64,000 nucleotides of DNA from an uncultured Acidobacteriota bacterium. Its GTDB lineage: Bacteria; Acidobacteriota; Terriglobia; UBA7540. A program made the translations under genes and the position numbers. Shown here piece by piece: positions 41,791 through 43,930 of this stretch (the stretch's first letter is position 1; each line of letters begins with the position of its first letter). The notes under the pieces are model-generated. The model had not been told where the DNA came from. It saw only the letters and a list, made by a program, of their open reading frames with translations, and ran no database searches. Location: NCBI GenBank assembly GCA_963804995.1, contig CAWDSK010000003.1, positions 1,216,001 to 1,280,000 of the forward strand, written 5' to 3'.

Positions 41791-41885
41791 GGGGCCGGTT
41801 GGCGCAGGGCGAGCGCAGCCCTGCGAGTCTAGTGTGGTCTGATGACGTGAATCGCAGAGCTGGGCTCGCTCTGCGCCAACCTGCC
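41791..41885. repeat. Palindromic repeat flanking the IS110 element
   Basis: ggttggcgcagggcgagcgcagccctgcga / tcgcagagctgggctcgctctgcgccaacc; similar arm at ~43722-43755. Confidence 0.7.
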
Positions 41886-42120
41886 TGGTGAAGCGGGTAG
41901 CCATCTCTGAAACCGCGATGCCGTGTCAAGCGGATTTTAGGTGCCGATTGACAGAAGTCTGCACCTAGTTTCAGAATGGCAGTCAGCCGGCGAAGCGGAA
42001 GCGGGCTCTGCTGGCGAGCAACCCGCCGAGGAATAGCCGGTGGGAGGCTCATCGTAACGACGAGCAGGGGGGCGATGGGATGATCGCTCCTCCTCCTGGT
42101 GGTTACGATAGCTTCCCCAT

Positions 42121-42497
42121 GCCTGAGAAAACGCCCGGCCGATTACGATCCTCGCCGAGTTCGCCACTCCGAAACTTGCACGGCTAAGTTAAAACACCTC
42201 CCTGGGGTAGGGCCAGGTTCTCACCCTGGCCTGCCGGTGGTGCGGTGGCCCAAGAGAAATCCCCAGGCCACGCACCCCCGACCGCGGCCGAGGAGAAGAA
42301 TTCTCGCTCGGCCCTTTCTGAAACTCGGAGCCCAGGACGTGGGCGCTTGTCGCTTGCCACGATGTCGCCGGCGGATGCGCCGATTCCAGTCATCTCTACA
42401 GGATCACTGCGGGGGTCTCCCGCAGGCCTCAGTCTGTTGTTCGAGGGGCAGTTCCTCATCACGGTTCGGGTTTGGTTTCCCCATGGCTACCTCAGGC
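42121..42497 (-). ncRNA. Predicted bridge/seek RNA of the IS110 element (3' limit uncertain, may extend to ~41930)
   Basis: Contains GGTAGCCAT and ACCGTGATG (target halves) and AGAGATG and GACATC (donor-junction halves); closed by GCCTGAG/CTCAGGC; several hairpins. Confidence 0.78.
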
Positions 42498-43538
42498 TTA
42501 CTGCCCCAGCTTGCCGGCTCTCCGGCCCCAACGTTCGGCCTGGAAAGGTGCTCCGTGTTTCAAAACTCCGTAAACGCAGCGGGCGACCGAACCCGCCACC
42601 GCCGTCTTGGCCACATTGGGGTGCTTGTGGCAGCGCCGCAGGTGCCAGTAACGCTGGCCGAGCGGGCTCTTGCTGCGCGTCAGGGCGTTGGCGGCGGTGA
42701 TCAAGGCCCAGCGCAACCAGACCGGACCTTGGCGGGTGATCGGACCATGAATCGAAACCTCGCCACTATCGTAGGAACTGGGCACCAAGCCGGTATAGTT
42801 CAACAGCGCGTCGGCGGAGTCGAAACGCGCCAGGTCTCCGATCTCGCTCCAGATGACCGCCGCCAGCATGTGCCCGAGGCCGGGGATGGTCTGCAGGAGC
42901 GCCACCTGGGGGAAAGCCGCGGCGGCCGCCAGCAGTTCCGCCTCGCTGGTTTCGCGCTCGGCGCTGAGAAAATCGTACAGGCGAAACATCCGCTCGAAAC
43001 ACAACTGCGCCGCCGACGAGAGCGCTTGCTGCTGGATCCAGGCTCGCCCCTTGGCGGTGAAGACGCACCGCTGCGGTCGCAGCCCGTGCATCTCCAGCAG
43101 GCTATTGACGCGGTTCTTCGTCTGGGCCCGCAGCCGCGCCAGGCCGCACCGCTGCCGCGCCAGCAGGCGTAATTCCCGGATGGAAGGGGGCGGAAACCAA
43201 GCCTCCGGTAGCGGCTCCACGTCGTGCACCGCCAGTTTCTTCACCAAGCGCCGAGTGTCCAGCCGGTCCGACTTCTGCTTGCGCAAGCTGTCGATCCCCG
43301 CCGTGTGCACCCAGTGCGCCCGATCCCGCCACCCCGCCTCTTCCAGCACACTCATCACAAAATAACCGCTGGTGGAAACTTCCAGAGCGATCTCCGCATC
43401 CGGCGGCAGCTCCGCCAAGCGCTGCCGCCACGCTTCCCGCGTGCACTCGATCGGCTCCAGCATTTTTACGTCTTCCCCGGGCGGAATCATCGCCATCCAA
43501 CAACGTCCCTTGTGAACGTCCGACGCAACCGGTATCAT
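42498..43538 (-). CDS. IS110-family DEDD transposase/recombinase
   Basis: SDVHK, ALEVS, KSDRLD (DEDD); TIPGLG, EIGDLARF, GLVPSSYDSG (catalytic Ser), ITRQG. Confidence 0.95.
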   Translation of the reverse strand: MIPVASDVHKGRCWMAMIPPGEDVKMLEPIECTREAWRQRLAELPPDAEIALEVSTSGYFVMSVLEEAGWRDRAHWVHTAGIDSLRKQKSDRLDTRRLVKKLAVHDVEPLPEAWFPPPSIRELRLLARQRCGLARLRAQTKNRVNSLLEMHGLRPQRCVFTAKGRAWIQQQALSSAAQLCFERMFRLYDFLSAERETSEAELLAAAAAFPQVALLQTIPGLGHMLAAVIWSEIGDLARFDSADALLNYTGLVPSSYDSGEVSIHGPITRQGPVWLRWALITAANALTRSKSPLGQRYWHLRRCHKHPNVAKTAVAGSVARCVYGVLKHGAPFQAERWGRRAGKLGQ

Positions 43539-43930
43539 CGTCTTGCCTCCTCGTTGAATTTCTTTCCCAGGTCCAGTCTACCTGGACCCGAGGAGGCATC
43601 GCCGTTTCATAACATCACGGTCAGCGATTTTCTGACCGTGGGCTTTTCCCACGCCAAGCATGCTACACCCAATCCCGAAGACCATACAGCGCTCGTGCGG
43701 CATTGATGAAAGACCCACGGGGGCTGGCGCATCAGGGCGAGCCCAGCCCTGGGATTTCTCGAACTCGAAAAGGCGCAGATAAATCCAGAATACGGGGGAT
43801 GAACAGAGACGTGAATCGCCCCGACGCTTCGGGGCGCCCGCCCTTAGAAAAGCCCAGAATTGTACCGTCCTGGACGACTACCCGCTGGCTGTTTGCGCCC
43901 CCGTCTTACTTGCAGTAAAGTAGACTCATC

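What the first reader, a model, noticed from the sequence alone, without database searches (positions are those of the whole stretch)
41902..43616. IS110/IS1111 element whose bridge-RNA guides can be read directly from the sequence
Seen: both ends share CATC. Joining the flanks gives the empty target ...gcgGGTAGCC-AT-CACGGTcag...; joining the element ends gives the circle junction (minus strand) ...GTTTCAGAG-AT-GTTATGAAAC.... Just after the transposase stop the minus strand reads GGTAGCCAT (42491-42483), a small GGG/CCC hairpin, then ACCGTGATG (42465-42457). These are exact 9-nt matches to the two target halves on opposite strands. Further on, AGAGATG (42397-42391), a GGCG/CGCC stem and GACATC (42366-42361) match the two donor-junction halves (7 nt; 5 nt plus a G-T wobble). 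Established: IS110-family recombinases (IS621; IS1111 group) use a non-coding RNA with target- and donor-binding loops. Inference: this is an intact RNA-guided recombinase with an AT (or CATC) core and its own specificity, a candidate programmable tool. The class is known; whether this element is described I cannot tell.
Basis: partly seen in the sequence, partly recalled or inferred. Interest (0 to 1): 0.9.

Follow-up and report, generated by a model that had tools for sequence, protein, structure and literature searches.

The report
REP-targeting IS1111-type element with guide RNA
This is an intact jumping gene of a known RNA-guided kind (IS110/IS1111 family) in a soil acidobacterium, whose guide RNA spells out the small repeated hairpin it lands in; it is a well-supported new member, not a new kind of system.

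Summary
In detail: every motif is at the stated coordinates. The element is an IS1111-group member of the IS110 family. It has a 346-aa DEDD recombinase, subterminal inverted repeats and a long non-coding stretch after the gene. Four near-identical copies lie in this genome, all in one REP hairpin family.

The target loop is real. In 11 related elements its two guides change together with the flanking DNA. Two elements carry the guides of the other lineage and sit in the matching target.

- The usual empty target is 3 bases shorter than reconstructed: 87 REP copies without ATG against 1 with it. This points to a TG core and a circle junction 3 bases longer.
- The rare +ATG repeat variants, seen in two unrelated REP families, look like excision scars.
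- AGAGATGA is invariant in 11 of 11 elements, but GACATC is kept in only 2 of 11, so the second donor guide is not established.

The class has been in print since 2024 (PMC11187229, PMC11208160), and the scan met it before on other DNA.

In passing: a conserved structured module near the right end also occurs in IS3 elements and a group II intron across the phylum.

The parts
41902..43617 (-). The insertion sequence, with a TG core at each end (43617-43616 and 41903-41902).
   Evidence: 4 copies, 3 identical and 1 with one change; ends conserved in relatives
42498..43538 (-). Recombinase (transposase) gene, 346 aa
   Evidence: ORF. Pfam Transposase_20 (E 3.1e-22) and DEDD_Tnp_IS110 (E 1.8e-8). 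Aligns to the IS621 and ISCro4 transposases in the PDB, with the D..D pair (D91, D94) and the S258-G259 motif in register.
43595..43609 (-). Left subterminal inverted repeat
   Evidence: Read; 14 of 15 bases complementary to 41908-41922
41908..41922 (-). Right subterminal inverted repeat
   Evidence: Read; conserved in relatives
42445..42507 (-). Target-binding module of the guide RNA: an 8-bp basal stem, a 3-bp stem, an internal loop carrying the two guides, and an apical hairpin
   Evidence: RNAalifold on 11 elements; the stems keep pairing through changes on both sides (GGGGCAGU/ACUGCCCC against GGAGCAGG/CCUGCUCC, CCU/AGG against CCC/GGG, GGG/CCC against GGU/ACC)
42483..42491 (-). 5' target guide GGTAGCCAT. 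[quoted passage not shown]
42457..42465 (-). 3' target guide ACCGTGATG. It equals the left target half plus the TG core, plus the first bases (ATG) of the element's left end.
42390..42397 (-). Donor guide AGAGATGA, which equals the right end plus the core
   Evidence: Invariant in 11 of 11 relatives; 8-letter match to the joined ends
42431..42443 (-). Candidate second donor guide (CGAACAAC and the following bases), 5' of the hairpin that precedes AGAGATGA. Uncertain.
   Evidence: Column conserved in 11 of 11 relatives. By my hand count it resembles the complement of the left end in 5 to 7 of 8-9 letters. It has the same order as the target loop.
42361..42366 (-). Doubtful.
   Evidence: Kept only in this element and G001 (2 of 11); the others read AAACTC, AAGCTC, GATCTC or AATCC
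42201..42217 (-). Terminator-like hairpin followed by a T run, about 280 nt after the stop codon
   Evidence: Consensus scan only; 2 found against 1.3 expected, so weak
41968..42131 (.). Conserved structured module (core 41987-42040): an outer stem, a 10x10 internal loop of near-invariant CU-rich letters, an inner stem and an apical stem. Its role and its strand are unknown.
41948..41977 (+). Promoter-like site on the strand opposite to the transposase, pointing into the module (TTGACA, 18 bases, CAGAAT)
   Evidence: 10 of 12 matches. Both hexamers and the 18-base spacing are kept in 7 of 7 module-bearing relatives while the spacer varies (read).
41924..41929 (-). TTGACA, a possible -35 box of a junction promoter, 22 bases from the right end
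   Evidence: TTGAC kept in 10 of 10 relatives. That it acts as a promoter is inferred from published IS110/IS1111 circles (PMC11187229, PMC11208160).
43618..43648 (-). Left part of the split REP1 hairpin (the target)
41892..41901 (-). Right part of the split REP1 (GCTACCCGCT)

Best explanation
Window 41902-43617 (minus strand) is an active-looking IS1111-group insertion sequence of the IS110 family in an uncultured Acidobacteriota (Terriglobia-type) genome.

Its DEDD/serine recombinase is guided by a non-coding RNA encoded directly after the gene. [quoted passage not shown] The element therefore lands at one fixed point of that repeat, in one orientation.

A second region of the RNA carries AGAGATGA, which reads the element's own right end. 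The partner segment that reads the left end is not settled.

Most likely (about 0.65) strand exchange happens at a TG dinucleotide. Under that model:
- the natural target is the abundant REP form, with TG directly followed by GCTACC;
- the circle junction joins the right end, TG, and a left end beginning ATG;
- the extra letters of the guides (AT(G) and U) pair with the incoming element ends after exchange, like the handshake guides of IS621.

Shown here: anatomy, copies, flanks, guide-target covariation and the fold. Inferred: transcription, RNA-protein complex, circle, core position and activity.
For: Family:
- PF02371 and PF01548 match. The sequence aligns to the solved IS621 and ISCro4 transposases, with the D..D pair and the SG motif in register.
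- GLVPSSYDSG fits the IS1111 motif GL-P----S(t)G, and the length of 346 aa lies in the 330-350 range given for IS1111 transposases (PMC11187229, section read).
- The subterminal inverted repeats match in 14 of 15 bases, and a 596-nt non-coding region lies downstream of the gene.

Activity: 4 copies, 3 identical and 1 with a single change, sit at 4 different REP1 sites.

Guide covariation across 11 elements, with flanks:
- Six elements carry GGTAGCCA-type and ACCGTG-type guides. All of their known flanks are GCTACC on the right. Their left flanks are ACCGT or a one-base variant.
- G023, whose guide reads ACTGT, has one site reading ACTGT.
- Three elements carrying GCTGGCGC-type and GCTCTG-type guides (IS-B, G019, G001) lie at CGCCAGC, with left flank GCGCTCT in three of the four IS-B copies.
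- G012 has a recombinase 82% identical to the IS-B lineage and 60% to this one, yet it carries this element's guides and this element's left flank. G001 is the converse case, 69% against 53%.

Fold: the three stems of the loop keep pairing through changes on both sides. The top-strand-pairing guide comes first, as published for IS1111 seekRNAs (PMC11187229).

TG core:
- ACCGTGGCTACC occurs 87 times against 1 for the form with ATG. For REP2 the counts are 18 against 4.
- The A after AGAGATG is invariant and matches the longer junction.
Against: - No RNA, circle junction or empty orthologous site could be observed. The only runs found hold relatives, as contigs, with small shares, and the flanks are not syntenic in relatives.
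- The occupied sites fit both core models equally.
- In the IS-B-type guides the 5' guide pairs with only one base of the TG core.
- Two single-copy relatives (G013, G010p) sit at sites that match their guides only in part.
- The whole guide region does not fold better than shuffled sequence (z = -1.0).
- No Rfam family matches.
Confidence: 0.85

Rival explanations
1. The target is the REP variant that already contains the extra ATG (15-letter site with CATC in the middle). The core lies inside it, the circle junction has a single GATG, and the donor loop is AGAGATG, a stem, and GACATC.
For: Both 9-letter guides match this site without a gap. One such empty site exists in this genome, and 18 exist in 12 of 29 genomes of the genus. 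The corresponding REP2 form has 26 sites in 13 of 29 genomes. The occupied junctions fit this model as well. GACATC is AACATC in G001.
Against: This form is 1 of 88 REP1 copies with that 12- or 15-letter core. The same 3-letter insertion, at the same point, in two unrelated repeat families needs the element itself to explain it. Seven of 11 elements do not pair with the last core base under this model. GACATC is not conserved although the left ends are alike. Its position would give the donor loop the opposite guide order to the target loop.
Confidence: 0.25
2. The copies are relics, and the guide matches merely record an old specificity. The element no longer moves.
For: No circle or transcript was seen. 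Only 4 of about 90 suitable REP1 copies are occupied.
Against: Three copies are identical over 1715 bases and the fourth differs at one base. The reading frame is intact, and the aligned D..D pair and SG motif are present.
Confidence: 0.07
3. Site choice is made by the protein recognising the REP hairpin, and the RNA matches are coincidental.
For: The target lies beside a hairpin. A structure requirement on top of pairing has been proposed for another IS110 element (preprint 10.64898/2026.03.19.712850, abstract seen in the listing).
Against: Guides and flanks switch together independently of the protein lineage (G012, G001). Seven-nucleotide-plus matches occur on both strands in each of two guide types.
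Confidence: 0.03

Closest known systems
IS1111-family elements with seekRNA: ISEc11, ISPa11, ISKpn4, ISPst6 (Siddiquee et al. 2024, PMC11187229; sections 6, 9, 10, 12, 13 and the Discussion read)
   Same: DEDD transposase of about 340 aa, subterminal inverted repeats, and a non-coding region after the gene. The guide RNA starts near the stop codon. The top-strand-pairing match lies 5' of the bottom-strand match. Natural redirection by exchange of the guide letters between relatives, as in ISEc11 and ISXne4.
   Different: A different host phylum and a different target (an acidobacterial REP). The non-coding region is longer (596 nt) and carries an extra conserved module. Nothing here is tested at the bench.
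IS621 bridge RNA (Durrant et al. 2024, PMC11208160, passages; Hiraizumi et al. 2024, PMC11208158, passages on handshake guides)
   Same: A two-part RNA that reads both target and donor. A dinucleotide core is included in the pairings. Extra guide letters pair with the other DNA after strand exchange.
   Different: IS621 belongs to the IS110 group: its RNA lies upstream of the gene, the guide order is reversed, and the core is CT. Here the core is probably TG, and the extension on the bottom-strand guide is 2-3 letters. The recombinase aligns to IS621 only over the C-terminal domain and weakly over the D..D region.
ISPpu9 and MITEPpu9 (ssr9) of Pseudomonas putida (PMC12288879; abstract, introduction and discussion part 1 read)
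   Same: An IS110-family element that inserts into REP repeats and carries a separable small-RNA module downstream of the transposase gene. Some copies lack the module, and solo copies exist.
   Different: ISPpu9 is of the IS110 group and recombines at AG. Its module is flanked by copies of the IS ends, which I did not find here. The module here also occurs in IS3 elements and in a group II intron.

Membership tests
IS110 family (DEDD recombinase) | N-terminal DEDD/RuvC-like domain and C-terminal Transposase_20 domain | tested here: met
   PF01548 (34.7 bits, cutoff 29) and PF02371 (79.2 bits, cutoff 21.3)
IS110 family (DEDD recombinase) | Catalytic residues: D, E, D, D and the serine of the SG motif | tested here: inconclusive
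   D91 and D94 align with the second D..D pair of IS621, and S258-G259 aligns with its SG (IS621 residue numbers from passages). The first D and the E were not aligned individually.
IS110 family (DEDD recombinase) | Site-specific insertion without terminal inverted repeats or target duplication beyond the shared core | tested here: met
   4 of 4 copies lie at the same point of REP1. Under the TG-core model only TG is shared.
IS1111 group | Subterminal inverted repeats of 7-17 bp | tested here: met
   43595-43609 against 41908-41922, 14 of 15 bases. The length range is taken from passages.
IS1111 group | Longer non-coding region downstream of the transposase gene | tested here: met
   78 nt before the gene and 596 nt after it
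IS1111 group | Transposase of 330-350 aa with the GL-P----S(t)G motif | tested here: met
   346 aa, with GLVPSSYDSG. The criterion comes from PMC11187229.
seekRNA / bridge RNA | [quoted passage not shown] | tested here: met
   11 elements with two guide types. Two elements carry the guide type of the other protein lineage. The fold is conserved.
seekRNA / bridge RNA | Donor-binding loop with guides for both element ends | tested here: inconclusive
   The right-end guide AGAGATGA is present in 11 of 11 elements. The left-end guide has two weak candidates and neither is convincing.
seekRNA / bridge RNA | The RNA is made and binds the recombinase | not testable with these tools
   Only contigs of related sequences were available
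Rfam RNA families | Match to a curated covariance model | tested here: not met
   5 matches at E up to 1. All are microRNA models far below their gathering scores, and none lies on the guide region or on the core of the module.

The most novel reading that the evidence does not exclude
Two readings go beyond 'one more IS1111 element'.

(a) The conserved module near the right end (core 41987-42040) may be an undescribed structured RNA, or an antisense RNA gene with its own conserved promoter. It travels in the 3' region of three unrelated kinds of mobile element (IS1111-type, IS3-family, group II intron) across Acidobacteriota, perhaps as a portable regulator or a hitchhiker.

(b) The element may recombine at a TG that occurs twice at its left junction, so that it leaves a 3-base ATG scar on excision. 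Such scars, spread over two REP families in about 4 in 10 genomes of the genus, would then be a readable record of past RNA-guided excisions.
Probability: 0.4. Interest if true: 0.6.

Novelty: new member of a known kind. Interest (0 to 1): 0.4.

Why it matters
The mechanism has been in print since 2024, so the element itself is of catalogue value: an intact IS1111-type recombinase from Acidobacteriota with a readable guide.

Three side results are more useful:
- A natural experiment in one genus shows guide cassettes exchanged between recombinase lineages that are only about 60% identical. This suggests that scaffold and guides are interchangeable over that distance.
- The comparison of abundant and rare repeat forms warns that an empty site cannot be derived by simply joining the flanks when the ends share more letters than the true core. 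It also suggests handshake-like guide extensions in the IS1111 group, for which no structure exists.
- A conserved structured module shared by three classes of mobile element is unexplained and may be a new RNA.

Tried and rejected
- **Rfam.** Nothing on the guide region or the module core at E up to 1.
- **Reads for a circle junction, an empty orthologous site or an RNA.** The 24 runs listed hold at most 0.19 of the sampled words and are kept as contigs. The 4 runs laid show relatives only, with no joint between the two ends. Parts without cover say nothing.
- **Orthologous empty site in the genus.** The two flanks lie on different contigs in relatives. Only a non-orthologous unoccupied REP1 was seen, in L086.
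- **Folding energy.** The 171-nt guide region gives z = -1.0, which is not informative.
- **The module as a small protein.** All 6 variable sites among close relatives fall in one codon phase. However, both strands give synonymous readings, the frames upstream differ between elements, and wider relatives show non-synonymous and paired changes. Rejected in favour of structure.
- **Strand of the module.** 84.2% of cells pair on the sense strand and 82.3% on the antisense strand. Undecided.
- **Copies of the element's ends flanking the module, as in MITEPpu9.** None found within 1.5 kb of four solo right-end fragments.
- **Scripted table of guide-flank match lengths.** The match lengths in this report are read by hand.
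- **Alignment A2.** It held one wrongly placed row and was replaced by A3.
- **Literature.** Searches for the module and for IS1111 with REP in Acidobacteria gave nothing relevant.
Full report
**What is there**

On the minus strand, window 43617-41902 holds a 1.7-kb element. It consists of:
- a 78-nt left end;
- a 346-codon reading frame at 43538-42498;
- a 596-nt non-coding stretch.

The protein matches Pfam Transposase_20 (E 3.1e-22) and DEDD_Tnp_IS110 (E 1.8e-8), both above their curated cut-offs. By sequence it also finds the solved IS621 and ISCro4 transposases (E 9e-13 and 9e-12). In that alignment D91/D94 and S258-G259 are in register with the D..D pair and the SG of IS621 (residue roles from passages).

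The ends carry subterminal inverted repeats, 43595-43609 against 41908-41922, matching in 14 of 15 bases. Four features match those Siddiquee et al. give for the IS1111 group (PMC11187229):
- subterminal inverted repeats;
- a long non-coding region downstream of the gene;
- a protein of 346 aa;
- the motif GLVPSSYDSG.

Record titles of the nearest relatives name uncultured Acidobacteriota and Terriglobia genomes.

**Copies and target**

The genome (9 contigs, 7.55 Mb) holds 4 copies, 3 identical and 1 with one changed base. All 4 split the same repeat. On the left is a hairpin ending in ...ACCGT; on the right, GCTACC, followed by CGCT in three copies and AGCT in one.

This repeat (REP1 here) has 134 copies that match its first 17 letters with at most 2 changes.

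A second, related element (IS-B) is also present 4 times:
- its recombinase is 58% identical to this one;
- it has the same termini;
- one copy is frameshifted, and one is interrupted by another 1.1-kb element;
- all 4 copies have CGCCAGC on the right, and the left flank is GCGCTCT in three of them and GCGGCTCT in the fourth;
- three of these sites lie in a long palindromic repeat, REP2.

**The target loop is real**

Directly after the stop codon the RNA strand reads GGTAGCCAT, a small hairpin, then ACCGTGATG.

I collected 11 related elements from 9 genomes of the family and aligned this region. RNAalifold gives an 8-bp basal stem, a 3-bp stem, an internal loop holding the two segments, and an apical hairpin. 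All three stems keep pairing through changes on both sides.

The two loop segments come in two types, and each type goes with its own flanks.

- **GGTAGCCA plus ACCGTG type.** Carried by this element, G023, G047, G100, G020 and G012.
  - Every known right flank is GCTACC: 12 sites.
  - The left flank is ACCGT at 10 of the 12 sites where it is known.
  - G023, whose guide reads ACTGT, has left flanks ACTGT, ACCGT and ACTAT.
- **GCTGGCGC plus GCTCTG type.** IS-B, G019 and G001 lie at CGCCAGC.
- **Partial matches.** G013, which has a third variant of the guides, and G010p, which has the GCTGGCGC-type 5' guide, sit at sites that fit only in part. Half-matching off-target insertion is described for IS621 (preprint 10.64898/2026.08.31.748434, abstract read).

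The telling cases are two elements that carry the guides of the other lineage:
- G012 has a recombinase 82% identical to IS-B and 60% to this element. It carries this element's guides and lies at ACCGT.
- G001 is 69% identical to this element and 53% to IS-B. It carries the IS-B guides and lies at CGCCAGCC.

The guide that pairs with the top strand comes first, as reported for all IS1111 seekRNAs tested.

**The empty site and the core**

That 15-letter site occurs once in the genome.

The ordinary REP1 reads ACCGTG directly followed by GCTACC:

| Repeat | Without extra ATG | With extra ATG |
|---|---|---|
| REP1 (exact copies) | 87 | 1 |
| REP2 (exact copies) | 18 | 4 (7 with one change) |

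The occupied junctions fit two models equally.

- **Model 1.** The target is the ordinary repeat, the core is TG, the left end begins ATG, and the circle is 1714 bp.
The target is the rare form, and the circle is 3 bases shorter.

I favour model 1, at about 0.65, for four reasons:
1. Abundance of the ATG-less form.
2. The same 3-letter insertion, at the very point of insertion, in two unrelated repeat families is hard to explain without the element. The left junction contains TG twice, three bases apart. Recombination at the inner TG would leave exactly this scar.
3. Under model 1 the 3' guide pairs with the whole core in 11 of 11 elements. Under model 2 it does so in 4 of 11.
4. The invariant A after AGAGATG matches the longer junction.

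Under model 1 the guides match the integrated junctions (9 and 9 letters) better than the empty site (6 and 8). This is what the handshake guides of IS621 do after strand exchange.

The +ATG forms recur across the genus:
- REP1 form: 18 sites in 12 of 29 genomes;
- REP2 form: 26 sites in 13 of 29 genomes;
- reversed control patterns: none.

This fits scars but does not exclude model 2. In the IS-B-type guides the 5' guide reaches only one base of the core under either model.

**The donor side**

AGAGATGA (42397-42390) is invariant in 11 of 11 elements and equals the right end plus the core.

| Reading | Element(s) |
|---|---|
| GACATC | this element |
| AACATC | G001 |
| AAACTC, AAGCTC, GATCTC or AATCC | the other 9 |

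Yet all 8 elements whose left end is known begin it alike. The segment also lies 3' of AGAGATGA, which is the reverse of the order used in the target loop.

A better-conserved candidate is the segment 5' of the intervening hairpin (42443-42431). By my count it resembles the complement of the left end in 5 to 7 of 8-9 letters, best in the IS-B lineage. This too is weak.

An 8-letter copy of part of the right repeat (GTTTCAGA, 42324-42317) is a further match. I leave the second donor guide open.

**Expression signals, by consensus only**

- TTGACA lies 22 bases from the right end, and TTGAC is kept in 10 of 10 relatives. It could form a junction promoter, as published for this family.
- A terminator-like hairpin lies at 42217-42201.
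- No read evidence for transcripts of this element was obtainable.

**The right-end module**

The last 240 nt are more alike between this element and IS-B (74-75%) than the recombinase genes are (65-67%).

The conserved part (about 42131-41968) is present in 7 of 10 aligned elements and missing from 3.

Distribution:
- An 89-nt query finds it in 54 of 133 genomes of the family. This count includes three genomes marked unpublished (G113, G115, G032). Close relatives of the recombinase occur in only 14 of 133.
- A covariance model (R1) finds it 9 times in this genome: in the 8 copies of the two elements and at one further place.
- R1 finds it in 10 of 150 other genomes drawn across the phylum.

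Structure, in a 26-row alignment:
- An outer stem, a 10-by-10 internal loop of almost invariant CU-rich letters, an inner stem and an apical stem are predicted. Six of 13 pairs show changes on both sides.
- With hairpin and stem extensions added, 9 pairs show such changes against 3.4 ± 1.4 in shuffles (0 of 500 reach it), and 84% of cells pair.
- The phylum-level hits add further paired changes in all three stems.

Neighbouring genes:

| Scan | Proteins scanned | Findings |
|---|---|---|
| | 10 upstream frames | 7 IS3-type transposases (rve, HTH_21); 1 group II intron reverse transcriptase-maturase; 1 outer-membrane protein fragment; 1 nothing |
| | 11 further frames | 1 IS3-type; 1 alpha-galactosidase; 2 weak; 7 nothing |

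Solo right-end fragments without a recombinase gene also exist.

Further observations:
- The strand is undecided.
- On the + strand, a TTGACA-18-CAGAAT site points into the module. Its hexamers and spacing are kept in 7 of 7 module-bearing relatives.
- Contigs of two peat metagenome runs and two metatranscriptome runs (one wetland, one peat) cover 41994-42057 far more deeply than the rest. These are summed depths of relatives and prove no transcription.
- No Rfam family matches, and two literature searches found nothing.
- A precedent for a separable small-RNA module in an IS110-family element is ssr9/MITEPpu9 (PMC12288879).

I regard the module as unexplained.

**Verdict**

This is a genuine, probably active IS1111-type RNA-guided element and a new member of a known kind. 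The scan has met the same kind on other DNA several times.

- The empty site, core and circle junction are probably each off by three bases.
- The second donor guide is not supported.

Noticed in passing
window 41968-42131 (core 41987-42040); loci L052-L080 and L092-L112: A conserved structured module with paired changes in three stems and a near-invariant CU-rich 10x10 internal loop. It lies in the 3' part of IS1111-type elements, IS3-family elements and a group II intron. Found in 54 of 133 family genomes (3 of them unpublished) and in 10 of 150 other genomes of the phylum. No Rfam match; strand and role unknown.
   Followed up: partly
window 41948-41977 (+): A promoter-like site antisense to the element (TTGACA, 18 bases, CAGAAT) that points into the module. 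Hexamers and spacing are kept in 7 of 7 module-bearing relatives although the spacer varies.
   Followed up: partly
genome-wide; in the window at about 43706-43723 (a REP2 half with the extra ATG) and at G000:C1:654657: Rare variants of two unrelated REP families carry an extra ATG exactly at the insertion point of the two elements. REP1 form: 18 sites in 12 of 29 genomes of the genus. REP2 form: 26 sites in 13 of 29. They may be excision scars.
   Followed up: partly
window 41794-41884: An unoccupied copy of the long palindromic repeat REP2, the target family of the sister element IS-B, lies just beside this element's right flank. It caused the chance microRNA-model hits in Rfam.
   Followed up: partly
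G000:C3:1380797-1381898 (outside the window): One IS-B copy is interrupted in the hairpin before AGAGATGA by a single-copy 1102-bp element with about 30-bp terminal inverted repeats flanked by TA. The IS630/Tc1-like label is from recall, not tested. Another IS-B copy (G000:C6:1008219-1009956) has a frameshifted recombinase gene.
   Followed up: partly
G000, many REP1 copies listed: About ten REP1 hairpins carry a different insert in their loop (starting GTCGCC...CCATTAAGAT). Earlier notes of this scan describe a roughly 40-copy group II intron that homes into a GTAG-type REP of this genome. If it is the same repeat, two different RNA-guided mobile elements use one REP family as landing site.
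   Followed up: no
runs X1 and X2 laid on window 41802-43716: A contig form joins the first 60 bases of the left end to the last 140 bases of the right end (42041 to 43556, depth 175-196 in two peat metagenome runs). This suggests a miniature derivative that lacks the recombinase gene and the guide RNA.
   Followed up: no
window 43540-43600: In the left end, GCCUCCUCG can pair with the ribosome-binding stretch CGAGGAGGC just before the start codon. This hairpin would mask translation initiation of the recombinase.
   Followed up: no
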